Shown: one piece after another, positions 1 to 11,892 of the stretch | How positions within the stretch are numbered: the first letter of the stretch is position 1 | Layout of the letters: each line of letters opens with the position of its first letter | Assembly (NCBI GenBank): GCA_964360965.1 | Contig: CAYHYM010000015.1 | Coordinates: 1-11,892 of the forward strand | DNA from: an uncultured Gammaproteobacteria bacterium | Lineage (GTDB): Bacteria; Patescibacteriota; Microgenomatia; Daviesbacterales; UBA10151 | Direction: 5' to 3' | Length of the DNA stretch: 11,892 nt | The notes under the pieces: generated by a model | What the model was told of the DNA's origin: nothing | Seen by the model: the letters and a program-made list of their open reading frames with translations, nothing else | Databases searched by the model: none | Made by a program: the position numbers and the translations under genes

Positions 1-1728
1 AAAAGATGATTGAGACTGACCAATGATATTTCTGATCATTTTATTGGTAACAAAACGGCCAAATTTGGAAACCGTATAATCCAAAACTTCTGATTTGTGA
101 AAATCAGCAGTTTGGGCAATCTGATCTGTCCAGTAGCGGCGGACCACCGGGTCAGTCACATAGGGCAGTAGTTCCTGGACAAATTTAGCATCTGTCATCA
201 CCCTCATCACCTCCACAAAAGTAGATCCTGCCACTGACATAGCAGTTAACATGGCATTTCTGACTCCATGTTCAAATCTGGGACCAATAATACCTGTTCT
301 TTGAGGATCAAACAGTTTATACATCAACCCGATGATGGAGGCCACCACAAAATGTTTCTGCTCCTCACTGCTGGACTCCAGCATATTAAGGCCCAAAGGA
401 CGATCCAAATTTGAGGGATCAAAATAAATTACATCCTCCGCTCGAGAAGGCGGAATCAGCTCCAATATCTCCTCTGCAGCATCACCGTGCGGATCAATAA
501 AGGCCAAACCTTTGCCGGATAAAATATCCTGCAGTATTAAAGATTTCAAAAACTCGGTTTTGCCGGTACCGGTTCTGCCTATCACATACATGTGACGGCG
601 CCTGTCATCATCAGACAGATAAACCGGCCGGTCAATGCCGCGGAATATTGACCGCCCTAAAAAAAGACCGGAGGTGGGGATTGTTTCCGGAGCAGGGGCC
701 CCCTTAAATGACAACCACATAATGTGAGGAGTTTCCACGCTTTTATTGGGAAAATGGAAAATTGAGGATAGCTCATCTGATGTCAGAATGGAAGGTTTGG
801 TAAATCTGGGAGGATAACGGTAGATAAAATCAGTCATAAAGCCTTTTTCCGATCTGATTTTTAAAGAAGACAGAGAGTTGTAAGGGCCGGAAAACTGCTC
901 CAGGGCAGAGCGGATATTAGCAAGATGAGCTTTGGCCAAATCTTGACTTGTTGATGACACCACTATCCGTAATGTTGTTTCAAAACCCGGGCGGGATATC
1001 TTCCCCTCAACTGCCTCAATCTGCTTGGCATCAGGAGGAGGTTTGGGACTGTCTGGTTTGCCCGGATCTTTTTCCTTTTTCAGCCAGGCTCGGCCTCCAT
1101 CTTTCCAAGAATTGGCGGAGGGAGAAATCACAAGCTGTATTACTGCCCCTTCTTGAGGATCCATCTTGGCCAAAGATGAGGTGAGAGCGGAGAGCGGATC
1201 TGTCGGCAGATCACGAAAAGTTTTAAAAGGAAAAAAATCAGAGCTTCTTAGTTTCAAAGAAGCGTAGGCTGTCTGACCTTGCTCTGAAAAAATATTATAT
1301 TCAGGCACCTCTTGTATCTGGGCATCAGGGTAGGCTCCATTGATCTGTTTTTCCACCAAATCTTTCTGGTTGGCGTGGCATGACACCAAAAACCTGATAG
1401 ATTCATGCAAGGCCACAATTTCAAAGGACAGATAAGGCTGAGGTTTAAAAGCAGAAAACCATCCCCCACTTTTTCTTAGAGAGGCAAATTGGGCAAACAG
1501 CTGTTCTGCCGCATCAATTTTAATCTCATTATCCCTGGGCACTCTGATCTGAAGCAACACATTTTGCAAAGATTCCCTTTCCCTGTCTTGATATTTTATA
1601 AAACCAACCAGAAACCTCCAAAAATAAACTGCCATCCCTGCTACAGCAAGCAACAGGCCAAAAAGGCCTAAGATAATTAATACAAGGGTGACAAAATCCG
1701 GCGATGATTCATTTACTGCTACTTCCAT
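1..1728 (-). CDS. VirD4/TraG/TraD-like type IV secretion coupling-protein family P-loop ATPase (N-terminal 576 codons; C-terminus lies beyond the left window edge)
   Basis: Line-by-line hand translation of the reverse complement gives an uninterrupted 576-codon frame from ATG at 1728 down to base 1 (MEVAVNESSPDFVTLVLIILGLFGLLLAVAGMAVYFW...IFHFPNKSVETPHIMW...YVIGRTGTGKTEFLKSLILQDILSGKGLAFIDPHGD...). It has one N-terminal TM helix, a Walker A GRTGTGKT (556-579) and a following hhhDPHGD motif. GGAGG (1741-1737) lies 8 nt upstream of the ATG. It is absent from the ORF track only because no stop codon falls inside the window. Family assignment is from motif and architecture recall, not a search. 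Confidence 0.8.
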   Translation of the reverse strand, partial: MEVAVNESSPDFVTLVLIILGLFGLLLAVAGMAVYFWRFLVGFIKYQDRERESLQNVLLQIRVPRDNEIKIDAAEQLFAQFASLRKSGGWFSAFKPQPYLSFEIVALHESIRFLVSCHANQKDLVEKQINGAYPDAQIQEVPEYNIFSEQGQTAYASLKLRSSDFFPFKTFRDLPTDPLSALTSSLAKMDPQEGAVIQLVISPSANSWKDGGRAWLKKEKDPGKPDSPKPPPDAKQIEAVEGKISRPGFETTLRIVVSSTSQDLAKAHLANIRSALEQFSGPYNSLSSLKIRSEKGFMTDFIYRYPPRFTKPSILTSDELSSIFHFPNKSVETPHIMWLSFKGAPAPETIPTSGLFLGRSIFRGIDRPVYLSDDDRRRHMYVIGRTGTGKTEFLKSLILQDILSGKGLAFIDPHGDAAEEILELIPPSRAEDVIYFDPSNLDRPLGLNMLESSSEEQKHFVVASIIGLMYKLFDPQRTGIIGPRFEHGVRNAMLTAMSVAGSTFVEVMRVMTDAKFVQELLPYVTDPVVRRYWTDQIAQTADFHKSEVLDYTVSKFGRFVTNKMIRNIIGQSQSSF

Positions 1729-2055
1729 TTAAGCTGCCTCCTTCAGTTCTGAACCGGGATTTATTCTTCTTAGTTTTGCTTTAAGCCTTTCTAAAAAATT
1801 TTCTGATCCTGCTGTTCTTACCAAACTGCCACCCAAAACAGGCCTGGTTAAATCCTCTGCCAAAGATCCCATAAATTCTGCTCCAGTCTTTACCAATTCT
1901 GGTGTCTTGGGAAAAGAGGTTTCATCGTTTGTTGGTGTGACATCTTCTTTATTGACCGGTATTCCATGAGCATTAGTCTGATCTGTAATTTTTTGCACAT
2001 GATCCTCATCTATCTGATCTCTGGTGATGATATTCTCCTCTGGGACAGTGGGCAT
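1729..2055 (-). CDS. hypothetical small acidic protein (108 aa), translationally coupled to the downstream coupling-protein-like ATPase
   Basis: ORF track entry. Its TAA stop (1731-1729) directly abuts the ATG of the ATPase gene (TAAATG), and the ATPase SD GGAGG lies inside its last codons. No TM segment and no recognisable motif. The N-terminal half is D/E/T-rich and the C-terminal tail is basic (LKAKLRRINPG). Confidence 0.6.
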   Translation of the reverse strand: MPTVPEENIITRDQIDEDHVQKITDQTNAHGIPVNKEDVTPTNDETSFPKTPELVKTGAEFMGSLAEDLTRPVLGGSLVRTAGSENFLERLKAKLRRINPGSELKEAA

Positions 2056-2095
2056 ATTAGTAGTGTATCATACTGACTATGATTTTAAAGGTTAA
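2042..2095. promoter_or_regulatory. candidate bidirectional promoter in a 23-bp divergent gap, with a shared symmetric -10
   Basis: Only 23 nt (2056-2078) separate the two divergent ATGs. The near-palindrome GTATCATAC (2065-2073) reads TATCAT on + (2066-2071, 7 nt before ATG 2079) and TATGAT on - (2072-2067, 11 nt before ATG 2055). Weak -35-like hexamers are GGGACA (2042-2047, 18-nt spacer) for + and TTAACC (2095-2090, 17-nt spacer) for -. Neither ATG has an SD. Confidence 0.3.
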
Positions 2096-2792
2096 AAAAA
2101 TCAAAAAAAACACCGGAGATGTTTTTAGCATGATCTTTAAAAAACCCCAAAAATTTTTCTTTTATCCAGGACAATATTTGGAAATTATACTGCCCATAAA
2201 AAATGACCAACGAGGAAATTCTCGTAACTTTACTATCTCTTCCTCCCCCACTGAAAGGTATTTGATGATTACCACCAAAATTGGAGTTAGTCCATTTAAA
2301 AAATACCTGGAATTATTAAAAGTTGGAGATAGAGTTGAGTCTTCTCACCCAGCCGGCACCTTCACTTTAGATGAAACAGAACCAGCCATCTTTATAGCTG
2401 GTGGAATCGGCATTACTCCATTCAGAAGCATGATTAAATATGCTGTTACTAATGAACAAGTTCTTTCCTCCGGAAATAAAATTAAAACTCCAATTACTCT
2501 AATTTATTCTAATTCAGATAATAATTTTCTATTTAAAAAAGAATTGAAAAAATGGAAAAAGAATCTATCGAATCTCACTATCATTTATCATAACTCCAGC
2601 CAAAATGGCCGCCTCACTAAACTATACCCTATACCCTACCTTTCCGAAGGAAAGGCAAGCTCTGCTTATACCCTAAACCCTATCTACTATCTTGCAGGAC
2701 CACCACAGTTTGTCGATGATATGGAAAAGATTTTGTTTGATTTAGGAGTAGATCAGGTAAATATCCGCTATGATCGCTTTGATGGCTATTGA
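2079..2792 (+). CDS. ferredoxin-NADP reductase-like (FNR family) FAD/NAD(P)-binding oxidoreductase, stand-alone two-domain form
   Basis: 237 aa. It has the FAD-binding RxxS-type motif RNFTISSSP, the upstream FYPGQYLEI strand, the NAD(P)-binding IAGGIGITPFRSM (GGxGxxP) and a C-terminal YLAGPPQFVDDM (CGP-like motif with C to A). No Fe-S, haem or flavodoxin partner domain. Its last 9 codons plus stop lie in repeat copy A. Confidence 0.85.
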   Translation: MILKVKKIKKNTGDVFSMIFKKPQKFFFYPGQYLEIILPIKNDQRGNSRNFTISSSPTERYLMITTKIGVSPFKKYLELLKVGDRVESSHPAGTFTLDETEPAIFIAGGIGITPFRSMIKYAVTNEQVLSSGNKIKTPITLIYSNSDNNFLFKKELKKWKKNLSNLTIIYHNSSQNGRLTKLYPIPYLSEGKASSAYTLNPIYYLAGPPQFVDDMEKILFDLGVDQVNIRYDRFDGY

Positions 2793-2793
2793 T
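2764..2793. repeat. 30-bp direct repeat, copy A (TCCGCTATGATCGCTTTGATGGCTATTGAT)
   Basis: Identical base for base to 3946-3975, with mismatches immediately outside both ends (A2763/C3945 and A2794/T3976). It covers the final codons ..IRYDRFDGY and the TGA (2790-2792) of the FNR-like gene. Internally it is three phased ~10-bp units: CCGCTATGAT / CGCTTTGAT / GGCTATTGAT. Confidence 0.95.
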
Positions 2794-2797
2794 AGAG

Positions 2798-2803
2798 TAT
2801 AAT
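2798..2803 (+). promoter_or_regulatory. consensus -10 hexamer TATAAT, 6 nt upstream of the cassette ATG (possible leaderless transcript)
   Basis: TATAAT at 2798-2803, then AGAAAT, then ATG at 2810. There is no SD in between and no convincing -35. It sits inside the insert, 4 nt from its left boundary. Confidence 0.3.
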
Positions 2804-2809
2804 AGAAAT

Positions 2810-3928
2810 ATGGCTGATGTGGTACAAACTGAAGCTCCAACTCCTGTTAGTCATCAAGAAAAAGTGGCAGGTTTATACGGAGATAAATACTTACGTGAGT
2901 CAGAAGTTAGAACGCTACACTCTCTCCTTCAAGACCACCCATCAGTAATGGTCATGGGATCTATAGGCAGAGGTAAATCTACTTTTATGTCCGAGGCTTT
3001 TTACTATACCAGAGAGATGAAAAAGCATGGTGGAGTTGCTCGTTCTGTATTCTTTTTTGATCTCCATGAGCTTGATAGACATATCAGACTTCTGGAGGGA
3101 ACAGAAAGTACCCCTGAGGACATAGCAAAAACAGCCCATCCCATACTTGATTGGCTAGATCATCAGAGGCAAGGACCAGATCTACAGGATATACCACCTA
3201 CTGAGAGGCCAATACTTTTTATAGATGCTGGTGATGTTTTTTTCTTGGAGCATTTGGGTTCTGAATACTTTCCAGCGTATAAATCTACTCAATGGAGACC
3301 GATTGAACTATTAGAAGGCAAACCAGATGCACAGCAAGGTTATTTAAGACAGTACGTCAGACAGGCCAAAGCGGAAAAAGAGACCATCAGAGTTGATATG
3401 GCCCGAGTTTTAAATCGACCATTACCCACCCCTGAAACTCCCGAGCAAATAGAGCTATGGGTTAATTGGGCGATGCATAGATTTCCTAAATATCGAGCGT
3501 TCGAAGAAACAAGGGAGCAACTATTTAACAAAGTTATTCAGGCACTTCAAGAAGGAAGAGTCAGGGTGGTACTAACTGACCACGGTTATTCGAGAGAAAG
3601 TATGAAAGCAGGAGGAGAGGGAGTTAATAGGCAAGCATGTTTGTATATGCTAGAAAGGTATAACCAGCTGTTTGCTGACTCCTACCGATACGATCTGCCA
3701 GCAAGTTATCAAACAGGCAAGGCTAGAACATTTTTACAGAGACGGGGGGTAAATGATCTTGAATTACAAGATGAAATTATAGAAGCTACAGGGGCAGAAC
3801 ACAAACTACTAACACTGGCCATTACCCCAGAAGTTATTCAAACCCTTAATACTGCTCATTCAGAAGAACATAGAAAAGGAATTTTACAAAGAGCAGTTGA
3901 ATCCTATGTTGAATCCTATAAAAAATAA
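2810..3928 (+). CDS. orphan P-loop NTPase of unknown function (372 aa from ATG 2810; the ORF track starts it at TTG 2789)
   Basis: Walker A VMVMGSIGRGKSTF (GSIGRGKST at 2957-2983). Walker B-like hydrophobic strand ending in Asp, PILFIDAGD (3212-3235). A later VRVVLTDHG strand and a helical C-terminal half. I prefer ATG 2810 because TTG 2789 overlaps the upstream stop and adds only 7 residues. I recognise no specific family beyond the P-loop. Confidence 0.75.
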   Translation: MADVVQTEAPTPVSHQEKVAGLYGDKYLRESEVRTLHSLLQDHPSVMVMGSIGRGKSTFMSEAFYYTREMKKHGGVARSVFFFDLHELDRHIRLLEGTESTPEDIAKTAHPILDWLDHQRQGPDLQDIPPTERPILFIDAGDVFFLEHLGSEYFPAYKSTQWRPIELLEGKPDAQQGYLRQYVRQAKAEKETIRVDMARVLNRPLPTPETPEQIELWVNWAMHRFPKYRAFEETREQLFNKVIQALQEGRVRVVLTDHGYSRESMKAGGEGVNRQACLYMLERYNQLFADSYRYDLPASYQTGKARTFLQRRGVNDLELQDEIIEATGAEHKLLTLAITPEVIQTLNTAHSEEHRKGILQRAVESYVESYKK

Positions 3929-3945
3929 CTCATCTCGCCTCGCTC

Positions 3946-3975
3946 TCCGCTATGATCGCTTTGATGGCTATTGAT
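3946..3975. repeat. 30-bp direct repeat, copy B
   Basis: Perfect match to 2764-2793. Positions 3968-3975 encode the last two codons and the TAG stop of the minus-strand receiver gene. Positions 3946-3967 are non-coding yet still identical to copy A. Confidence 0.95.
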
Positions 3976-4342
3976 TAAAAAATTCATTGATGCGTCCAAC
4001 CACCTCCTGGGGCAGATGTTCAACTTTTAAAAGATAGCCCACTGCTCCCAAAGACAGGCAGTCTTTGATAATATCCTCCTGTCCCAGATTTGATAAAACC
4101 ATCACCGGAATATTTTTGGTTAAATCATTACCCTTTAAATCCCGCAGCACCTCCACCCCATTTTTTTTAGGCAACATGATGTCCAAAAGGATCAGGTCAA
4201 ATTTTTGATTTTGAGCCATTTTTATTCCTTCCTCTCCATCTTGAGCCACCATCACTTCATATCCAGCTTGAGTTAACACTCTTTTATAAAGATCAAAAAT
4301 AAACTTATCGTCCTCAATCAGTAAAATTTTTTTAGGATTCAT
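3968..4342 (-). CDS. single-domain response regulator (CheY-like receiver, no output domain)
   Basis: 124 aa. It has the N-terminal acidic pair ILLIEDD, the phospho-acceptor context DLILLDIMLP, a conserved S/T in VMVLSN and a K in YLLKV. Its ATG overlaps the trxB stop (ATGA at 4342-4339). Confidence 0.9.
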   Translation of the reverse strand: MNPKKILLIEDDKFIFDLYKRVLTQAGYEVMVAQDGEEGIKMAQNQKFDLILLDIMLPKKNGVEVLRDLKGNDLTKNIPVMVLSNLGQEDIIKDCLSLGAVGYLLKVEHLPQEVVGRINEFFNQ

Positions 4343-5277
4343 ATTATCTTAATATTCTCCAAATATTCTTCTACATCCATGGCGGCTTTACAGCCCATGC
4401 CGGCTGCGGTGACAGCTTGGCGATAATGATAATCCCCCACATCTCCTGCCACAAATACTCCTTCAACTGAAGAATAAGTCTCATTTTTTAAAACTACATA
4501 CCCTTTCTCATCTAATTCCACTTGTCCTTTTAAAAAATCTGTATTAGGTCTGTGGCCAATGGCAATAAAGACTCCATCTATTTGTATGGTACTAATCTTA
4601 CCATTTTGAGTACTTTTTATCTTCACTCCCGTTACTTTATCTTGCCCCAATACTTCTTCCAAGGTAGAATTCCAGATAAATTTAACATTTGGTTTACTTT
4701 TGACTAATTCTTGCAAAGCAGCTTGAGCCCTTAACTTATCTCTACGGTGTACCACTGTAACTTGTTGACATAGTTTAGCAAGATATGCTGCCTCCCTCAT
4801 GGCAGTATCCCCTCCTCCTACCACAATCACAGCCTTATCCTTAAAGAAAAATCCGTCACAAACCGCACAAGCTGAAACACCTTTCCCCCTCAGTCTTTGT
4901 TCTGACTCCAAATTAAGCCACATGGCAGAGGCACCGGTGGCTACGATTATGGCTTCAGTGGACAGCGGGTCCCCAGTTTCAGTTTTAATCTCAAAAGGAT
5001 TTTTTTTAAGATTTAAAGACACCACATCTTCATTGATAAATCTAACCCCAAACCTTTCTGCCTGTTTTCTAAATTTATCCATCAACTCTGGACCTTGGAT
5101 ACCACTTTCAAAACCCGGGAAGTCATCCACGTCTGTAGTTAACATCAGTTGCCCACCTGCCTCACGTCCTGCAATCACTACAGGATTTAAAGCTCCTCTG
5201 GCCCCGTAAATGGCAGCTGTTAAACCTGCAGGCCCAGAACCAATTATGATTAGTTTTTCAACTTGAGAATTTTCCAT
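4339..5277 (-). CDS. trxB: thioredoxin-disulfide reductase (low-Mr TrxR)
   Basis: 312 aa. FAD-binding GSGPAGLTAAIY, redox-active CAVCDG, NADPH motif GGGDTAMREAAYL...VHRRDKLRA, and C-terminal GVFVAGDV. Confidence 0.9.
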   Translation of the reverse strand: MENSQVEKLIIIGSGPAGLTAAIYGARGALNPVVIAGREAGGQLMLTTDVDDFPGFESGIQGPELMDKFRKQAERFGVRFINEDVVSLNLKKNPFEIKTETGDPLSTEAIIVATGASAMWLNLESEQRLRGKGVSACAVCDGFFFKDKAVIVVGGGDTAMREAAYLAKLCQQVTVVHRRDKLRAQAALQELVKSKPNVKFIWNSTLEEVLGQDKVTGVKIKSTQNGKISTIQIDGVFIAIGHRPNTDFLKGQVELDEKGYVVLKNETYSSVEGVFVAGDVGDYHYRQAVTAAGMGCKAAMDVEEYLENIKII

Positions 5278-7133: not shown

Positions 7134-7162
7134 TTGACCCAACTTAATTACTCTGTTAAGGT
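7134..7162 (+). promoter_or_regulatory. sigma70-like promoter for the sensory operon (TTGACC, 17 nt, TGT-TAAGGT)
   Basis: TTGACC at 7134-7139, a 17-nt spacer, a TG-extended -10 TAAGGT at 7157-7162, then 7 nt to ATG 7170. The AAGG inside the -10 could alternatively act as a weak SD. Confidence 0.35.
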
Positions 7163-7169
7163 ATTGTTA

Positions 7170-8198
7170 ATGCCCAAAGGATTCATCTCTCCTTTTTTAA
7201 TAATACTGATTGTTGTTCTGGCAGTGACCTCAGCTTACTTTTTCTTACTCCTTCCCAAAAAGGAAACCTTAAATCTTCATCAGATGAGCGATGTTGATCA
7301 CAAGAAAAAGATGCACAAAGTGGCAGTTTTGATAGGACAAGACGCTCATGCTCCTGCTTTTTTGGGTTTTAAGGAAAAAATGACCCAACTTGGATATATT
7401 GAAGGAAGCAATATCTCCTATCAGGTCTTAAATGGCAAGGGAGATGCCAAACTGGTTGAAAAATATGCTGAGGAGTTAGTTTCTCAAAATCCAGAGATAA
7501 TTGTCACCTCTTCCACATCTGCCACCAAACCTGTCATTAAACTTACCAAACAAATTCCCATTGTTTTTTTGGCCTCAGGCAATGTGGAGGAGCTGGTTGA
7601 GCATCAACCTTTCTCTGGCACCAATGTCACTGGTATCGCCTCAGCAGAAACAGACATCACAGGCAAAAGACTGGAATCTCTCCTGCAGCTTAAGCCTGAT
7701 ATGAAAAGGGTTGGTCTTGTATATAATCCCACCACCAATGCTTATAAAAAGGCTTACAATTTAGCCTACGATGCTGCCCCAAAAATCGGTTTGCAACTGA
7801 TTGATATACCTGTTGCAAGTATTGAAGAATCAACCAAAACATCACCAACACTTGCTCAAAAAAAATTAGATGCCATTCTGCTTCTTCCTACCGGAGGTAT
7901 CACAACTATTGCTGAACCACTAGTTAAGAGCGCCACACAACAAAAAATTCTCTCCTCCTGCGCCACTGAGGAAGCAATCAAAAATGGTTGCATGACAGGA
8001 TTGGTATCCAATCTAAAATCCATGGGGGTTCAGGGCGCAAGTATGGTGGACAGGATCTTTCAGGGAATGAAACCTTCGGAGATTGCCATTGAAAATGCCT
8101 TAACTTCAAACTTTGTTATAAACCTTAACACCGTCAAGAGTATGAATCTTAAGATTGCTCAAACGGTTTTAGAATCTGCAGACAAGCTGATCGAATGA
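7170..8198 (+). CDS. membrane-anchored ABC-transporter-type substrate-binding protein (ABC_sub_bind / PF04392-like), likely sensor accessory
   Basis: I prefer the internal ATG 7170 (MPKGFISPFLIILIVVLAVTSAYFF, a TM anchor) over the track's TTG 7134. KVAVLIG...AFLGFKEKMTQLGYIEGSNISYQVL...AEELVSQNPEIIVTSSTSATKPVIKLTKQIPIVFLASG...GTNVTGIAS follows the pattern I recall for this family. No permease or ATPase genes are adjacent. Its stop overlaps the kinase ATG (ATGA at 8195-8198). Confidence 0.8.
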   Translation: MPKGFISPFLIILIVVLAVTSAYFFLLLPKKETLNLHQMSDVDHKKKMHKVAVLIGQDAHAPAFLGFKEKMTQLGYIEGSNISYQVLNGKGDAKLVEKYAEELVSQNPEIIVTSSTSATKPVIKLTKQIPIVFLASGNVEELVEHQPFSGTNVTGIASAETDITGKRLESLLQLKPDMKRVGLVYNPTTNAYKKAYNLAYDAAPKIGLQLIDIPVASIEESTKTSPTLAQKKLDAILLLPTGGITTIAEPLVKSATQQKILSSCATEEAIKNGCMTGLVSNLKSMGVQGASMVDRIFQGMKPSEIAIENALTSNFVINLNTVKSMNLKIAQTVLESADKLIE

Positions 8199-10504
8199 AA
8201 GCTAAACTTCGGTTCAAAATCACCATTCTTTTTATCGCTGTTGCATTACTTCCCATTTTATTTGGAGGACTGTTGATTTTAAACAGGGCTCAAGAGAACC
8301 AATTACACCACATCAGGATAATGCAGCTTGACTTTATTCAAAGAGCTACCGAAGTCATCCAAAACAATATCAATCACCAGTTTGATGACTTTGAACAAAT
8401 CCCAGTTTCGGATCTGTCTTCTGAGAACAAAACAGTTGATTTTGAGGAGAAAAGGAAAAAGGTTTTAAACCAGCTACTCAAGATTAACAACGCACTTTTG
8501 GAAGTATCATTTGTCAACAACCAGGGCCTTCAGGAAGTTAAGCTCTCAAAACACCAGGTTATCAGCAAAGAAGATTTGGTTAATTTCAACCAAGATCCAA
8601 GATATCCCCAAATGCTTAATAATCCCAGGCAACTTTTTTTCTCATTTGACTTATCAAATCGGCCTGTTTTTACTCTATCACTTAAGCTCTATGATCAAAG
8701 AAGGCAATTTCAGGGGTTACTTTTGGCTCAGATTGATCCACAACTTCATAAAGTGGTTGAGAAAATCAAAGTCGGAATCACCGGGGAGGCATATATTGTG
8801 TCAAAAGAGGGTTTGGTGGTAGCCCATAAAAATCCCAGATTCACTCAACAAAAACAAGATTTTTCCCAGTTTTGTCCGGTTCAAAACTTCATAGGGGGCC
8901 ATGTTGATTCTGACAGTGCTGAATGCAGGTATAAAAATTATGCAGGAATAGAGGCGTTGGGAGCATTTCTGCCTATCTTATATACATCTTCGGTTGAAGA
9001 AAATACTCAATCTGTAACTTTATTGGCCGCTGTGACTGAGTGGCCAACCTCTGAGGCCTTACAAATTGTCACCACCTTACAAAATCTTATTGTAGGCATT
9101 TTGATTGCTGCAGCTGTTTTGTCCGTGGTGGCAGGAATACTTTTATCTCTCCAAATTGTCAACCCAATTGAAAAGCTGCAACAAGGAGCAAAACTAATTG
9201 GAGGAGGGCAATTAGATTACAGAATAGATATCAAAAGCGGAGATGAAATTGAAGATCTTGGTTCTTCCTTTAACACCATGGCAGAAAATTTAAGGCTGGA
9301 ATTTCAAAGGCAGCAACAAACTACCAGACTACTGCTTCGGCGTGATATAGAACTTAGAGAGATCAATGAGGAGTTGGAAAAAGAAAAACAACAAATCGTT
9401 GCTGAAAGAAATAAACTGGCGATAGTTCTATCGGGTGTGACCGATGCCGTCATCGCGGTGGATTTACATCGGCAAATTTTAATTTTTAATAAGGCCGCAG
9501 AAAATCTAACCGGGTATAGCGCCTATGAAGTGGTCGGTCAGGAAATTGAACAAGTTATCAAAATTTATGACGAAAATGGTCAAATTTCCCCCATCAATTA
9601 TTGTCCGATCCAACCTGTCGGCCTTGAGGGATCAACCTTTGCCAAAAAAGAACTCAAAATTATGGGAAAAGAAGAGAAGGAGAGTTTTGCCAATGTCTGG
9701 GCCGGACAAATCAAGGAAGGCCAAACCGCCAATATCGGTTGTATTTTAACTTTGCATGATGTCACTGCCGAACAACAGTTGGAAATAATGAAACTTGATT
9801 TTGTGTCCATGGCAGCCCATGAGCTTCGTTCACCCTTAACATCCATCAGAGGATATTTATCTGTTTTGATTGAGGAGGTCCAAGAAAAACTAACTGTAGA
9901 GCAAAAATCATTTTTAAACCGGATCAATATTGCCACCATCCAACTAGTGGCACTGGTGGAAAATCTGCTTAATGTTTCCCGCATTGAAAGAGGAATATTA
10001 ACTGTTAATCTGGAGGTTTCTGATTGGTTGGATTTGGTTCGCCAGTCTGTGGCTGATTTTGCAGACAGAGCCAAAGAAAAGAGTCTATCTTTGCAGTTTA
10101 TTGAACCAATCCAGCCTGCACCAAAAGTTTTGGCTGATAAATTAAGAATTGGGGAAGTGTTGTCTAATCTTTTATCTAATGCCATCAACTACACTCAAGC
10201 TGGAGGTCAAATTACAGTCTCTCTTGCGCAAAAAGATCAAGATGTCATCACTCATATCAAAGACACTGGTCAGGGTATACCACAAGATGCCATCCCTTAC
10301 CTTTTTACTAAATTTTTCAGAGTTTCAGGTAGCCTTGAACGAGGTAGTAAAGGCACAGGTTTGGGGCTTTATATTGCCAAATCAATCATTGATCTTCACC
10401 ATGGTAAAATCTGGGTTAACTCAGAGGAGGGCAGAGGATCAACTTTCAGTTTCTCTCTTCCTGTAGTTGAAGATTCTATTGACAAGATTGCTAAATTGGG
10501 ATAG
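8195..10504 (+). CDS. sensor histidine kinase: TM, Cache-like periplasmic domain, TM, HAMP, coiled coil, PAS, HisKA, HATPase_c
   Basis: 769 aa. It has two TM segments flanking a ~270-aa extracytoplasmic domain with the Cache-like GEAYIVSKEGLVVAH. HAMP region is PIEKLQQGAKLIGGG...EIEDLGSSFNTMAENL. PAS region is LSGVTDAVIAVDLHRQILIFNKAAENLTGYSAYEVVGQ. The H-box is MAAHELRSPLTSIRGY (His codon 9818-9820). N box is LLSNAINYT, G1 is DTGQGI and G2 is GTGLGL. Confidence 0.9.
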   Translation: MKAKLRFKITILFIAVALLPILFGGLLILNRAQENQLHHIRIMQLDFIQRATEVIQNNINHQFDDFEQIPVSDLSSENKTVDFEEKRKKVLNQLLKINNALLEVSFVNNQGLQEVKLSKHQVISKEDLVNFNQDPRYPQMLNNPRQLFFSFDLSNRPVFTLSLKLYDQRRQFQGLLLAQIDPQLHKVVEKIKVGITGEAYIVSKEGLVVAHKNPRFTQQKQDFSQFCPVQNFIGGHVDSDSAECRYKNYAGIEALGAFLPILYTSSVEENTQSVTLLAAVTEWPTSEALQIVTTLQNLIVGILIAAAVLSVVAGILLSLQIVNPIEKLQQGAKLIGGGQLDYRIDIKSGDEIEDLGSSFNTMAENLRLEFQRQQQTTRLLLRRDIELREINEELEKEKQQIVAERNKLAIVLSGVTDAVIAVDLHRQILIFNKAAENLTGYSAYEVVGQEIEQVIKIYDENGQISPINYCPIQPVGLEGSTFAKKELKIMGKEEKESFANVWAGQIKEGQTANIGCILTLHDVTAEQQLEIMKLDFVSMAAHELRSPLTSIRGYLSVLIEEVQEKLTVEQKSFLNRINIATIQLVALVENLLNVSRIERGILTVNLEVSDWLDLVRQSVADFADRAKEKSLSLQFIEPIQPAPKVLADKLRIGEVLSNLLSNAINYTQAGGQITVSLAQKDQDVITHIKDTGQGIPQDAIPYLFTKFFRVSGSLERGSKGTGLGLYIAKSIIDLHHGKIWVNSEEGRGSTFSFSLPVVEDSIDKIAKLG

Positions 10505-10515
10505 TCTTTAGAATA

Positions 10516-11703
10516 ATGGCAATTCTGGTAGGTGTCGGGGCATCTCAAAAAAAGGATCCTCAAGAGGCAATAGAGGAAGCCTTTAGCCAAGCGTCAAGCG
10601 GACTTTCAAATAATGCTCCCATCTTTATGACTCTTTTTGCTTCTCCCACAGTTTATGATCAACAGACTCTGCTGAAGACACTAAAAAGTAAAGCTCCCAA
10701 CGCAGTTATCATTGGCTGTAGTACGGCCGGAGAGATTACTTCTACCGCTGGCTCTTTAGATAGTTCTGTAGCTTTGATGGCTATCTACTCAGACACAATG
10801 AAGTTTATTCCCGGTGTAGGTTATAACATTCATCAAGATGCCAGGCAGGCTGGAAGAGGGTTGGGAGAAAGTATCTTAAAAACAGGAGGGGGAAAGCCCA
10901 AAGCCGGCCTGATTTTACCAGATGGGCTGGCAGGTAATGGAGCTGATGTGGTAAGAGGAGTGTTAGACGTCCTTGGTCAAGATTTCATGTTGGCAGGTGG
11001 AGCTGCGGGAGATGACTATTTATTTAAGCAGACTTTCGAATATCTTGATGATCAGGCGCTTAGCGGGGCAGTGGTAGGGGTAGGTCTTTATGGAGATTTT
11101 AGTTTTGGGATTGGGGTAAGACATGGTTGGATTCCCATTGGCATACCCAGAACAGCCACCAAATCAAAAGGAAATATCCTCTATGAACTTGACCATAAGC
11201 CGGCAATTGAGTTTTATGAGGATCATTTTGGCAAAGACAAAAGCCCGATTGATAAAAATGAACCCCTCGCCAGACTGGCTATTACTTATCCTATGGGTAT
11301 TCCTGCCCCCAATAAAGACGGCTATCTGATCAGAGACCCAATTACAGTAGATGATGCCGGAGCCATCACCTGCGCCGCAGAGATTCCAGAAGGCTCTGAA
11401 GTATATATTATGATTGGCAGCAAAGATGAAGCTATTGATGCTGCGGCTGATGCAGCCAATAAAGCACTGGCCGCAGTCTCTGGAAAAAAAGTAAAAGCAG
11501 TGTTTCTTTTTAATTGTATAGCTCGCAAAAAACTGCTGATGTCTAGAAAACAAGAAGAGATAGACACCATTAGAAAAGTAATTGGGCAAGATGTACCTTT
11601 AATAGGCTTTTACACTTATGGAGAACAAGCGCCTTTGGGTGGAGAAATTATCACTTGTTCATTTCATAATGAAACTGATGTCATCTTTGTACTGGCCGAA
11701 TGA
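10516..11703 (+). CDS. stand-alone FIST-domain protein (FIST_N + FIST_C; NosP-like candidate sensor)
   Basis: 395 aa. Characteristic FIST motifs are IIGCSTAGEI in the N-terminal half and LFNCIARKKLL ... IGFYTYGEQAP in the C-terminal half. It starts 11 nt after the kinase stop, so it is probably co-transcribed. Confidence 0.85.
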   Translation: MAILVGVGASQKKDPQEAIEEAFSQASSGLSNNAPIFMTLFASPTVYDQQTLLKTLKSKAPNAVIIGCSTAGEITSTAGSLDSSVALMAIYSDTMKFIPGVGYNIHQDARQAGRGLGESILKTGGGKPKAGLILPDGLAGNGADVVRGVLDVLGQDFMLAGGAAGDDYLFKQTFEYLDDQALSGAVVGVGLYGDFSFGIGVRHGWIPIGIPRTATKSKGNILYELDHKPAIEFYEDHFGKDKSPIDKNEPLARLAITYPMGIPAPNKDGYLIRDPITVDDAGAITCAAEIPEGSEVYIMIGSKDEAIDAAADAANKALAAVSGKKVKAVFLFNCIARKKLLMSRKQEEIDTIRKVIGQDVPLIGFYTYGEQAPLGGEIITCSFHNETDVIFVLAE

Positions 11704-11839: not shown

Positions 11840-11892
11840 TGGCTCCCCCGAGAGGATTCGGACCTCTAACCTAGTCATTAACAGTGACCCGC
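11840..11892 (-). tRNA. tRNA-Asn (anticodon GTT), 3' ~53 nt only; the 5' part lies beyond the right window edge
   Basis: The reverse complement reads ..GGTCA-CTGTTAA-TGACT (anticodon arm; U33, anticodon GUU, A37), AGGTT (variable loop), AGAGG-TCCGAAT-CCTCT (T arm), CGGGGGA (acceptor 3' strand), G (discriminator) and CCA (encoded). The T loop has C where the near-universal U55 is expected. Confidence 0.8.

What the first reader, a model, noticed from the sequence alone, without database searches (positions are those of the whole stretch)
2764..3975. Perfect 30-bp direct repeat brackets a one-gene insertion exactly where two convergent genes would overlap
Seen directly:
- TCCGCTATGATCGCTTTGATGGCTATTGAT occurs at 2764-2793 and 3946-3975 (offset 1182 bp), with mismatches immediately outside both ends.
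- Copy A supplies the last 9 codons and TGA of the FNR-like gene.
- Copy B supplies the last 2 codons and TAG of the minus-strand receiver gene. Its other 22 nt are non-coding yet still identical.
- Deleting one repeat unit reconstructs a clean empty site in which the two convergent genes overlap tail to tail by 7 nt. The duplication is therefore what keeps both genes intact.
- The insert is almost all ORF (16 nt + 1119 nt + 17 nt) and carries its own TATAAT.
- The 30-mer is itself three phased ~10-bp units (CCGCTATGAT / CGCTTTGAT / GGCTATTGAT), each ending in TGAT, which resembles iterated protein-binding sites.

Established knowledge: IS and transposon target-site duplications are typically 2-14 bp. 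Long identical flanks that regenerate a gene's 3' end are the signature of site-specific integration (attL/attR).

Inference: no integrase, transposase or terminal inverted repeats are present. This is either a minimal cassette mobilised in trans or an undescribed insertion mechanism.
Basis: partly seen in the sequence, partly recalled or inferred. Interest (0 to 1): 0.8.

Follow-up and report, generated by a model that had tools for sequence, protein, structure and literature searches.

The report
One-gene insertion flanked by 30-bp duplication
A rare ATPase gene in an uncultured groundwater bacterium really is bracketed by two perfect 30-base copies of its neighbour's gene end, but comparison with relatives points to a one-off recombination accident at a rearrangement-prone spot, not a new kind of mobile cassette.

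Summary
TCCGCTATGATCGCTTTGATGGCTATTGAT occurs perfectly at 2764-2793 and 3946-3975. Both junctions were reassembled independently from replicate samples, so it is not a misassembly.

The window is a Daviesbacteria-like (Patescibacteria) contig from Hainich groundwater. Relatives share a conserved cluster: FNR-like gene, then S26 peptidase, NiSOD, TrxB and PAP2 on the opposite strand.

The bracketed gene encodes an AAA+/ORC-like ATPase from a tiny family: 11 representatives among 1.84 billion proteins. All copies found are divergent (≤~73% identity) and two of five are broken. They sit in at least three different contexts.

One homologue (52% identity) lies at the same position after the FNR-like gene, with the same 5-nt spacing from stop codon to TATAAT, but has no flanking repeat. 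The gene's presence there is therefore probably old, while the duplication is recent.

The 30-mer has no dyad symmetry. Its "phased units" are 9-nt codon repeats of the conserved C-terminus, R-Y-D/R-F-D/G-Y-stop. No recombinase, terminal inverted repeats or second copy were found.

Best reading: a recombination by-product, homology-facilitated or single-crossover, at an indel hotspot. A cassette mobilised in trans is not excluded.

The parts
2079..2792 (+). FNR-like flavin/NAD-binding oxidoreductase gene. The ENA gene call starts at 2130. The C-terminus is IRYDRFDGY followed by the stop.
   Evidence: Pfam NAD_binding_1 and FAD_binding_8. More than 3500 homologues, 62-66% identical in Daviesbacteria/Patescibacteria. 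The C-terminus is conserved in about 120 homologues.
2764..2793 (+). Copy A of the 30-mer. This is the native 3' end of the FNR-like gene (8 codons plus TGA).
   Evidence: The same coding sequence is present in relatives that have no insertion: L004 matches 28/30 and L001 27/30.
2794..3945 (+). The 1152-bp segment between the repeats: 16-nt leader with TATAAT, the ATPase ORF, and a 17-nt trailer.
   Evidence: GC is 0.413 against 0.405 for the window, and codon usage is unremarkable.
2798..2803 (+). TATAAT (-10-like box) 6 nt upstream of the ATG. The spacing suggests a leaderless transcript.
   Evidence: Read from the sequence. The same TATAAT lies 6-8 nt before the ATG in homologues L001 and L010. 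No -35 match was scored. The leaderless reading is inference.
2810..3928 (+). 372-aa P-loop ATPase (Walker A GRGKST, Walker B-like FIDAGD) of an AAA+/ORC-Cdc6-like fold. The family is uncharacterised and tiny.
   Evidence: Only weak Pfam hits, to AAA_16, nSTAND and ATPase_2. There are 11 representatives among 1.84e9 proteins. The AlphaFold2 model has pLDDT 87. Foldseek finds AAA+/ORC/PABY2304 with TM no higher than 0.41. The profile search against PDB sequences finds ORC1 at E=0.002. No PADLOC, PHROGs, NCBIfam, phage, plasmid or viral-contig hits.
3929..3945 (+). 17-nt trailer CTCATCTCGCCTCGCTC between the ATPase stop codon and copy B. Origin unknown.
   Evidence: It shows no similarity to the 3' flanks of homologues.
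3946..3975 (+). Copy B of the 30-mer. Of its 30 nt, 22 are non-coding and 8 provide the last codons and stop of the receiver gene on the minus strand.
   Evidence: No RNA structure or terminator is predicted.
3968..4342 (-). Stand-alone response-regulator receiver gene (124 aa). It occupies the position that S26 peptidase and NiSOD hold in relatives.
   Evidence: Pfam Response_reg, E=1.6e-25. Synteny comparison.
4339..5277 (-). Thioredoxin-reductase-like gene (TrxB), the right-hand syntenic anchor. It overlaps the receiver gene's start by 4 nt.
   Evidence: Pfam Pyr_redox_2. It is 74-77% identical to the TrxB of L005 and L024, in the same order.

Best explanation
The 30-bp repeat is a real and recent duplication of the FNR-like gene's tail. 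It most likely arose as a by-product of a single recombination event, not as the signature of a dedicated mobile cassette.

Proposed history (inferred):
- One haplotype already carried the accessory ATPase gene directly after the FNR-like gene, as L001 still does.
- Another haplotype had the FNR-like gene and the receiver gene overlapping tail to tail, as FNR-like and S26 genes do in relatives.
- The two were joined by homologous pairing in or through the FNR-like gene's 3' end on one side. On the other side there was either an illegitimate joint 30 nt upstream of the FNR-like stop (homology-facilitated illegitimate recombination) or, equivalently, a single crossover of a circularised fragment through that short homology (Campbell-type insertion-duplication).
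- Either route leaves the homologous tail on both sides of the imported segment.
- The product survived because it keeps both the conserved ...GY C-terminus of the FNR-like protein and the receiver ORF intact.

What is shown: the duplication, the synteny, the hotspot, the old and decaying nature of the ATPase gene family, and the absence of element hallmarks.

What is inferred: the two parental haplotypes and the type of joint.
For: 1. The convergent junction is naturally overlapping in relatives, by 4-10 nt in L003, L005, L024 and L029. It is repeatedly disrupted by unrelated insertions: a 298-aa ORF in L004, a roughly 30-nt hairpin element in L027, and the ATPase gene in L001.
2. The donor-type arrangement exists. 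L001 has the FNR-like gene, then the ATPase gene, then S26 on the opposite strand, with the same 5-nt spacing from stop to TATAAT as the window.
3. Over the 72 aligned non-loop residues available, the FNR-like tails of the window and L001 are reciprocal best matches at 82% (L001's match to the window ties with P0065). The ATPases are only 52% identical.
4. The linkage between the FNR-like gene and the ATPase gene is therefore probably old. The 30-mer is 100% identical including 22 non-coding nt, so it is recent. The repeat is thus unlikely to mark the original arrival of the gene.
5. L001, L004 and L008 have no flanking repeat above chance.
6. The ATPase gene is not behaving like an active element. 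All copies found are divergent (no more than about 73% identity). Two of five are broken: a 5-nt duplication causes a frameshift in L008/L009, and L010 has an in-frame TAG. Composition is native-like.
7. The 30-mer has no dyad symmetry, and synonymous sites of the same codons vary among relatives.
8. Homology-facilitated illegitimate recombination is a described route for inserting DNA with one homologous and one illegitimate joint (PMC3240628, found).
Against: - Neither parental haplotype was observed. No contig shows the FNR-like gene overlapping the receiver gene, and none shows the ATPase gene followed by S26 in this population. All 4 contigs carrying the FNR-like gene and all informative contigs carrying the receiver gene show the filled state.
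- 30 bp is at the lower limit for RecA-type pairing (general knowledge).
- The insert is trimmed very tightly to a promoter plus an ORF, which also fits a cassette.
- The identical left-junction position in the window and L001 would also be produced by a precise site-specific system.
- The phylogenetic argument rests on a 72-residue fragment with a 2-residue margin.
Confidence: 0.45

Rival explanations
1. Site-specific integration. The 30-mers are attL and attR of a minimal one-gene cassette, circular form 1182 bp, that targets the tail of the FNR-like gene. It would be moved in trans by a host or helper recombinase, as with cis-mobilizable elements or Xer-dependent modules.
For: - Perfect direct repeats with sharp edges regenerate a gene's 3' end.
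- The insert is essentially a promoter plus an ORF.
- The left junction is in the same position in L001, 5 nt from stop to TATAAT.
- Presence among relatives is patchy. The FNR-like genes that best match the window's (L027) and L001's (L029) both have empty sites.
- A XerC/D-like integrase lies about 4 kb from this cluster in relative L005.
Against: - No recombinase on the 12.4-kb contig.
- The 30-mer has no inverted binding arms. It consists of direct 9-nt codon repeats.
- L001 lacks any attR-like copy.
- Homologues sit at other sites, next to NiSOD or DUF2283.
- The 30-mer is not conserved at synonymous sites.
- No further copy was found in the protein, metagenome, viral, phage or plasmid searches.
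- The ATPase copies are old and divergent.
Confidence: 0.2
2. Intragenomic template switching during break repair or replication. Repair at the fragile convergent junction removed S26 and NiSOD, and copied 30 nt from the FNR-like gene's tail 1.15 kb away as a templated insertion. No second haplotype is needed.
For: - The locus shows other short local copy events. In L027 the 17-mer CAAGCTCTGCTTATACC with a GAA-loop hairpin is present both inside the FNR-like gene and 157 nt downstream at the junction.
- Tandem duplications occur nearby: 12 nt at 3896-3919, 7-nt repeats at 2622-2638, and a 5-nt duplication in L008.
- S26 and NiSOD are missing from their syntenic place in the window.
Against: - The receiver gene would have to have acquired its last two codons and its stop by chance from the copied 30-mer.
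- The junction between copy B and the receiver gene looks like a genuine ancestral overlap. The stop lies in GGCTAT, as in L005.
- No microhomology can be checked without the precursor sequence.
Confidence: 0.15
3. Target-site duplication from a 30-bp staggered cut made by a transposase, casposase or Cas1-like integrase acting in trans.
For: - A perfect duplication with sharp boundaries is what fill-in of a staggered cut gives.
- Cas1-family integrases duplicate long targets: 14-15 bp for casposons and about 30 bp for CRISPR repeats (general knowledge; casposase integration is the subject of PMC8464041, listed).
Against: - The insert has no terminal inverted repeats (read; the longest inverted pairs listed include none at its ends).
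- No transposase or Cas1 on the contig.
- 30 bp is outside the known range of transposon target-site duplications.
- Homologous copies have no duplication.
Confidence: 0.07
4. Assembly artefact, or a chimera of two strains.
For: Coverage is low, 3.3-5x. One contig (L019) ends inside copy B.
Against: - Both junctions were recovered identically in R1, R2 and an independent Logan assembly, with hundreds of unique bases on each side.
- A 30-bp repeat is spanned by single short reads.
Confidence: 0.03
5. The 30-mer is a functional DNA site, with iterated protein-binding units, kept in two copies by selection.
For: Three phased units each end in TGAT.
Against: - The period is 9 nt and equals the codons of the conserved RYD-RFD-GY C-terminus, which is present in all homologues.
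- Synonymous sites vary among relatives.
- Only this genome has a second copy.
- The adjacent receiver protein has no DNA-binding domain.
Confidence: 0.03

Closest known systems
Homology-facilitated illegitimate recombination and Campbell-type insertion-duplication
   Same: DNA is imported using one short homologous segment. The homologous segment ends up on both sides of the insert, no element-encoded enzyme is needed, and the boundaries are sharp. The donor-type arrangement is seen in L001.
   Different: It was not observed directly here. The homology is only 30 bp. Neither parental haplotype was recovered. DNA uptake and RecA activity in this organism were not examined.
attL/attR of integrative elements lacking their own integrase (cis-mobilizable elements, CIMEs; integrative mobilizable elements)
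   Same: Identical direct repeats bracket an insertion at the 3' end of a gene and regenerate that end. No recombinase lies inside.
   Different: The insert is 1.15 kb with one gene. The repeat has no inverted recombinase-binding arms. No cognate integrase was identified. The homologue at the same site in L001 has no repeat. Other homologues lie at other sites.
Xer-dependent modules (IMEX elements; pdif modules of Acinetobacter plasmids)
   Same: Very small cargo modules without a recombinase, bounded by sites of about 28-30 bp and moved by host enzymes.
   Different: dif-like sites are 11-6-11 dyads. This 30-mer shows 0 of 11 complementarity between the corresponding arms and is made of direct 9-nt units inside a coding tail.
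Integron gene cassettes
   Same: A single ORF of about 1 kb with no recombinase inside.
   Different: Cassettes are usually promoterless and end in an imperfectly palindromic attC next to attI and intI. None of these is present, and this unit carries its own TATAAT.
Target-site duplications of transposons and casposons, and CRISPR repeat duplication by Cas1-Cas2
   Same: A perfect flanking duplication with sharp edges. About 30 bp matches the length duplicated by Cas1-Cas2.
   Different: No terminal inverted repeats, no transposase or Cas1, and no CRISPR array. Transposon and casposon duplications are no longer than about 15 bp.

Membership tests
Integrative element with attL/attR (tyrosine-recombinase type, including CIMEs) | Identical direct repeats at both ends of the insert | tested here: met
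   30/30 identity at 2764-2793 and 3946-3975.
Integrative element with attL/attR (tyrosine-recombinase type, including CIMEs) | Core site with inverted recombinase-binding arms around a short crossover region | tested here: not met
   The 30-mer consists of direct 9-nt units. Comparing bases 1-11 with the reverse complement of bases 18-28 gives 0/11 matches (read from the sequence). No inverted pair at the 30-mer or at the insert ends is among the longest pairs listed.
Integrative element with attL/attR (tyrosine-recombinase type, including CIMEs) | Cognate integrase in the element or elsewhere in the genome | tested here: inconclusive
   None in the insert or on the 12.4-kb contig. The rest of the genome was not available. 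A Xer-like gene lies near the cluster in relative L005.
Integrative element with attL/attR (tyrosine-recombinase type, including CIMEs) | Independent insertions show the same att repeats | tested here: not met
   L001 carries a homologue at the same site without any flanking repeat. L008/L009 and L010 are in other contexts.
Integrative element with attL/attR (tyrosine-recombinase type, including CIMEs) | Empty-site and circular-junction molecules in the population | not testable with these tools
   No read data were available. All 4 contigs with the FNR-like gene and 4 of 5 contigs with the receiver gene show the filled state; the fifth ends in the repeat.
Xer/dif-dependent module (IMEX, pdif) | 28-bp site made of two 11-bp inverted arms and a 6-bp spacer | tested here: not met
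   No dyad symmetry in the 30-mer (sequence).
Integron gene cassette | attC with inverted core sites, and an adjacent attI/intI platform | tested here: not met
   No palindromic attC-like site at either end. No IntI on the contig.
Transposon or casposon | Terminal inverted repeats and a transposase or casposase; target-site duplication of 2-15 bp | tested here: not met
   The insert ends AGAGTATAAT... and ...CGCCTCGCTC are not inverted repeats. The only ORF is an AAA+-like ATPase. The duplication is 30 bp.
Recombination-generated insertion-duplication (homology-facilitated illegitimate or Campbell-type) | The duplicated segment is ordinary resident sequence that is homologous between donor and recipient | tested here: met
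   The 30-mer is the native tail of the FNR-like gene, present in all relatives. L001, which has the donor-type order, matches 27/30.
Recombination-generated insertion-duplication (homology-facilitated illegitimate or Campbell-type) | Both parental arrangements exist | tested here: inconclusive
   The FNR-like gene followed by the ATPase gene is seen in L001. Tail-to-tail overlap of the FNR-like gene with the next gene is seen in L003, L005, L024 and L029. No contig shows the FNR-like gene directly overlapping this receiver gene.
AAA+ ATPase (ORC/Cdc6-STAND-like) for the cargo protein | Walker A and B motifs and an AAA+-type alpha-beta-alpha core with a helical lid | tested here: met
   GRGKST and FIDAGD motifs are conserved. 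The AlphaFold2 model has pLDDT 87. Foldseek hits Pex1/6, PABY2304 and ORC with probability 1.0 but TM of only 0.30-0.41. The profile hits ORC1 at E=0.002. It is below the Pfam cut-offs for every family.

The most novel reading that the evidence does not exclude
The 30-mers are the recombination sites of a minimal cassette consisting of a promoter and one gene. The cassette targets the tail of the FNR-like gene in Candidate Phyla Radiation bacteria and is moved entirely in trans, using a non-palindromic site made of direct repeats that no described recombinase family uses. The clean reversibility, with both convergent genes restored on excision, would then be a designed feature.
Probability: 0.1. 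Interest if true: 0.75.

Novelty: new member of a known kind. Interest (0 to 1): 0.3.

Why it matters
If the ordinary reading is right, this is a well-documented natural example of how accessory genes are slotted between overlapping convergent genes in streamlined Patescibacteria genomes without damaging either neighbour. It also identifies a rearrangement-prone junction in a conserved redox gene cluster (FNR-like, S26 peptidase, NiSOD, TrxB).

A practical consequence follows under any mechanism. A 30-bp direct repeat makes the insertion precisely reversible by deletion, so presence or absence of the ATPase gene could vary within the population.

If the cassette reading were right, it would define a new, extremely small class of element mobilised in trans, in a phylum where mobile elements are poorly known.

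Tried and rejected
- **Assembly artefact: rejected.** Both junctions recur in three independent assemblies.
- **Phased binding sites: rejected.** The period is 9 nt and equals conserved codons.
- **Structured RNA or terminator in or around the repeats: none found.** Rfam found nothing at E≤1, fold z-scores were about 0, and no terminator was found.
- **Foreign composition of the insert: not seen**.
- **Defence-system, phage or plasmid origin of the ATPase: not supported.**
  - The window's protein has no PADLOC, PHROGs, phage, plasmid or viral-contig hits.
  - Distant family members give only weak mad8 P-loop matches.
- **Other copies of the 30-mer:**
  - None in viral contigs.
  - The single metagenome scan went on the ATPase family. 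It found only the source population and one 30% homologue beside an MBL-fold gene and DnaB (L023).
  - The single genome scan went on the FNR-like protein and returned 3 loci.
- **Decayed flanking repeats in L001, L004 and L008: none above shuffled controls**.
- **Chimerism of the window's FNR-like gene, as a trace of co-import: inconclusive.** Mosaic motif combinations are common across the family and the C-terminal part is only 36 residues.
- **A correction to an earlier inference.** I first read the FNR-like genes of L001 and the window as non-sister. That was driven by the hypervariable loop. Without the loop they are reciprocal best matches.
- **Genome-wide excess of GAA-loop hairpins: not found**.
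Full report
**1. The observation**

The 30-mer TCCGCTATGATCGCTTTGATGGCTATTGAT occurs at 2764-2793 and 3946-3975. There are no mismatches, and no third copy exists with up to 3 mismatches. None of 200 shuffles reached two matches. The sequence outside both ends is unrelated, so the boundaries are sharp.

- Copy A holds the last 8 full codons (RYDRFDGY), the TGA, and 2 nt of the preceding Ile codon of an FNR-like oxidoreductase (2079/2130-2792; Pfam NAD_binding_1 and FAD_binding_8).
- Copy B holds the stop, the Gln codon and 2 nt of the Asn codon of a 124-aa receiver protein on the minus strand (3968-4342; Response_reg, E=1.6e-25). Its other 22 nt are non-coding.
- Between the copies lie 16 nt containing TATAAT, a 1119-nt ORF, and 17 nt.
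- Removing one unit gives a 7-nt tail-to-tail overlap.
- The internal periodicity is 9 nt, not about 10.

**2. Not an artefact**

The window is a Hainich groundwater contig (ENA ERZ1292627, Hain_H51_01um_R2, 3.7x coverage).
- The left junction is identical in contigs from replicate R1 (L016) and in a Logan assembly of ERR3858113 (L017).
- The right junction is identical in R1 (L020) and Logan (L021).
- A contig from R3 (L019) simply ends inside copy B.
- No contig in this population shows an empty site.

**3. Genomic setting**

Homologues of the FNR-like protein are 62-66% identical and are labelled Daviesbacteria or Patescibacteria. Relatives share the following order:
- on the minus strand, a DUF8128/DUF87 ATPase gene and a small ORF;
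- on the plus strand, the FNR-like gene;
- on the minus strand, S26 peptidase, NiSOD, TrxB, PAP2 and a membrane protein (L003, L005-7, L024, L027, L029).

In L003, L005, L024 and L029 the FNR-like and S26 genes overlap tail to tail by 4-10 nt. In relatives, however, the downstream partner is S26, not the receiver gene. In the window, S26 and NiSOD are missing and the receiver gene sits directly downstream of TrxB.

The junction is a recurrent indel site:

| Locus | What lies at the junction |
|---|---|
| L004 | unrelated 298-aa ORF with no family match |
| L027 | insert of about 30 nt bearing a hairpin |
| L001 | homologue of the ATPase gene |
| L024 | DAO-family gene in a second slot, between NiSOD and TrxB |

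**4. The cargo**

The 372-aa protein has Walker A (GRGKST) and Walker B-like (FIDAGD) motifs.
- Its only Pfam hits are below threshold: AAA_16, nSTAND and ATPase_2.
- The AlphaFold2 model is confident (pLDDT 87) but matches only generic AAA+, ORC/Cdc6 and PABY2304 folds at TM 0.30-0.41.
- The family profile touches ORC1 at E=0.002.
- Nothing links it to recombinases, transposition ATPases, known defence systems, phages or plasmids. Distant members show a weak mad8 P-loop match.
- The family is tiny. It has 2 members in the 5.8-billion-protein word search, and 11 representatives in the full scan of 1.84 billion proteins.

**5. Where the homologues sit**

| Locus | Identity to the window's ATPase | Context and state |
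|---|---|---|
| L001 | 52% | FNR-like gene, ATPase gene, then S26 on the opposite strand. The ATPase TAG overlaps the S26 stop by 4 nt. No flanking repeat. |
| L010 | 73% over the N-terminal region | Divergent from NiSOD. Carries an in-frame TAG. |
| L008/L009 | 59% | Frameshifted by a 5-nt TAGAC duplication. Followed by a DUF2283 gene on the opposite strand. |
| L023 | 30% | Beside an MBL-fold gene and DnaB. |
| L011-L015 | 25% | In a metagenome-assembled genome labelled Nanoarchaeota. |

In the window, L001 and L010 a TATAAT lies 6-8 nt upstream of the ATG. This suggests a conserved leaderless promoter (inference). The ATPase gene's GC content and codon usage are unremarkable.

Taken together, this is an old, fast-evolving, frequently decaying accessory gene of this clade. 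It occupies variable slots in the redox cluster. It is not a recently spreading element.

**6. Timing argument**

The window and L001 have the same distance of 5 nt from the FNR-like stop codon to TATAAT. Outside the hypervariable loop, their FNR-like tails are reciprocal best matches: 59/72 residues, 82% (for L001 this ties with P0065). The margin is only two residues.

The simplest reading is that the junction between the FNR-like gene and the ATPase gene is shared by descent or by co-transfer, and is as old as the 52% divergence of the ATPase. The 30-mer, by contrast, is 100% identical across 22 non-coding nucleotides, so it is recent.

The repeat is therefore unlikely to mark the gene's original arrival. 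More likely it marks a later event. That event joined the ATPase gene's 3' flank to a segment beginning 30 nt before the stop of an FNR-like gene and running into the receiver gene and TrxB.

**7. Mechanism**

The best fit is recombination between a haplotype carrying the ATPase gene and a haplotype with the FNR-like and receiver genes overlapping. One side would be a homologous exchange. The other would be either an illegitimate joint (homology-facilitated illegitimate recombination, described in PMC3240628) or a single crossover of a circularised fragment through the short FNR-like tail. Both routes leave the tail duplicated. Selection would keep only products that preserve the conserved ...GY C-terminus and the receiver ORF. 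Confidence is 0.45. The parental haplotypes are inferred, not observed.

**8. Rivals**

- **Site-specific integration in trans (0.2).** It explains the precision and the patchiness. Against it: the missing dyad, the missing attR in L001, the other insertion contexts, free synonymous variation of the 30-mer among relatives, and no other copy anywhere searched.
- **Intragenomic template switching (0.15).** The locus shows other local copy events: the 17-mer present twice in L027, the 12-nt tandem duplication at 3896-3919, and the 7-nt repeats.
- **Staggered-cut target-site duplication (0.07).** There are no terminal inverted repeats and no enzyme candidate.
- **Assembly artefact (0.03) and functional iterons (0.03).** Both are disfavoured, as set out in sections 1 and 2.

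**9. Comparison with known systems**

The structure works like an attL/attR-bounded or insertion-duplication product. It fails the defining tests for four families: tyrosine-recombinase att sites (no inverted arms), dif/pdif sites (no 11-6-11 dyad), integron cassettes (no attC or attI), and transposons or casposons (no terminal inverted repeats; 30 bp is too long). It meets the descriptive criteria of a recombination-generated insertion-duplication, though the parental states were not found.

**10. Verdict**

This is a real, cleanly documented structural variant at a hotspot, with an unusually long and perfect flanking duplication. It is probably the product of ordinary recombination. Interest is modest (0.3). 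The residual chance of a genuinely new cassette mobilised in trans is about 0.1.

Noticed in passing
window 2639-2672; L027 1119-1148 and 1272-1305: A perfect hairpin CCTTTCC-GAA-GGAAAGG followed by CAAGCTCTGCTTATACC (itself AAGC-TCT-GCTT) lies in frame inside the hypervariable loop of the FNR-like gene. In L027 the same 17-mer occurs twice, each time preceded by a different C-GAA-G hairpin: once in the loop, and once between the FNR-like stop and the 3' end of S26. The stems differ but stay complementary. The proteins of only 3 of 120 homologues (P0003, P0004, P0005) carry the corresponding loop insert. It could be a miniature element that tolerates coding sequence, or a repair footprint.
   Followed up: partly
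window 2622-2638; matching loop region in L001, L004, L029, L003: The loop region of the FNR-like gene carries 7-nt tandem repeats (CTATACC or CTACCAA), a period that is not a multiple of 3. Copy number varies between relatives. L003 has a CCCC-TTCG-GGGG hairpin at this position instead.
   Followed up: partly
window 3896-3919: A perfect 12-nt tandem duplication, GTTGAATCCTAT twice, produces VESYVESY at the C-terminus of the ATPase. It lies just upstream of the 17-nt trailer and copy B.
   Followed up: no
L008 273-285 / L009 173-185; L010 373-375: Close homologues of the ATPase gene are broken. A 5-nt TAGAC tandem duplication causes a frameshift and stop in two samples, and L010 has an in-frame TAG where other copies have Gly or Arg.
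   Followed up: yes
L004 1292-2188 (-): An unrelated 298-aa ORF occupies the same junction between the FNR-like and S26 genes in a relative. It has no hit in Pfam, NCBIfam or PADLOC. Only a 4-nt TATT is shared at its two junctions.
   Followed up: partly
window 1-1728 (-) and 1729-2055 (-): A large DUF8128/DUF87 (VirB4-like) ATPase gene runs off the window's left end, followed by a 108-aa ORF with no family match. Both are conserved in synteny upstream of the FNR-like gene in all relatives, so they are not markers of an integrated element.
   Followed up: partly
window 11843-11892 (-); L002 11804-12166: A partial tRNA is cut off by the window's right end (Rfam 29.8 bits; ARAGORN finds none). 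On the longer ENA contig a small GIY-YIG nuclease-domain ORF overlaps the corresponding stretch.
   Followed up: no
window 3968-4342 and 7134-11703: S26 peptidase and NiSOD, present between the FNR-like gene and TrxB in every relative examined, are absent from the window. In their place is a stand-alone receiver gene whose start overlaps the TrxB stop by 4 nt. A dCache-HAMP-PAS histidine kinase, an ABC substrate-binding protein and a FIST protein lie 3-7 kb away.
   Followed up: partly
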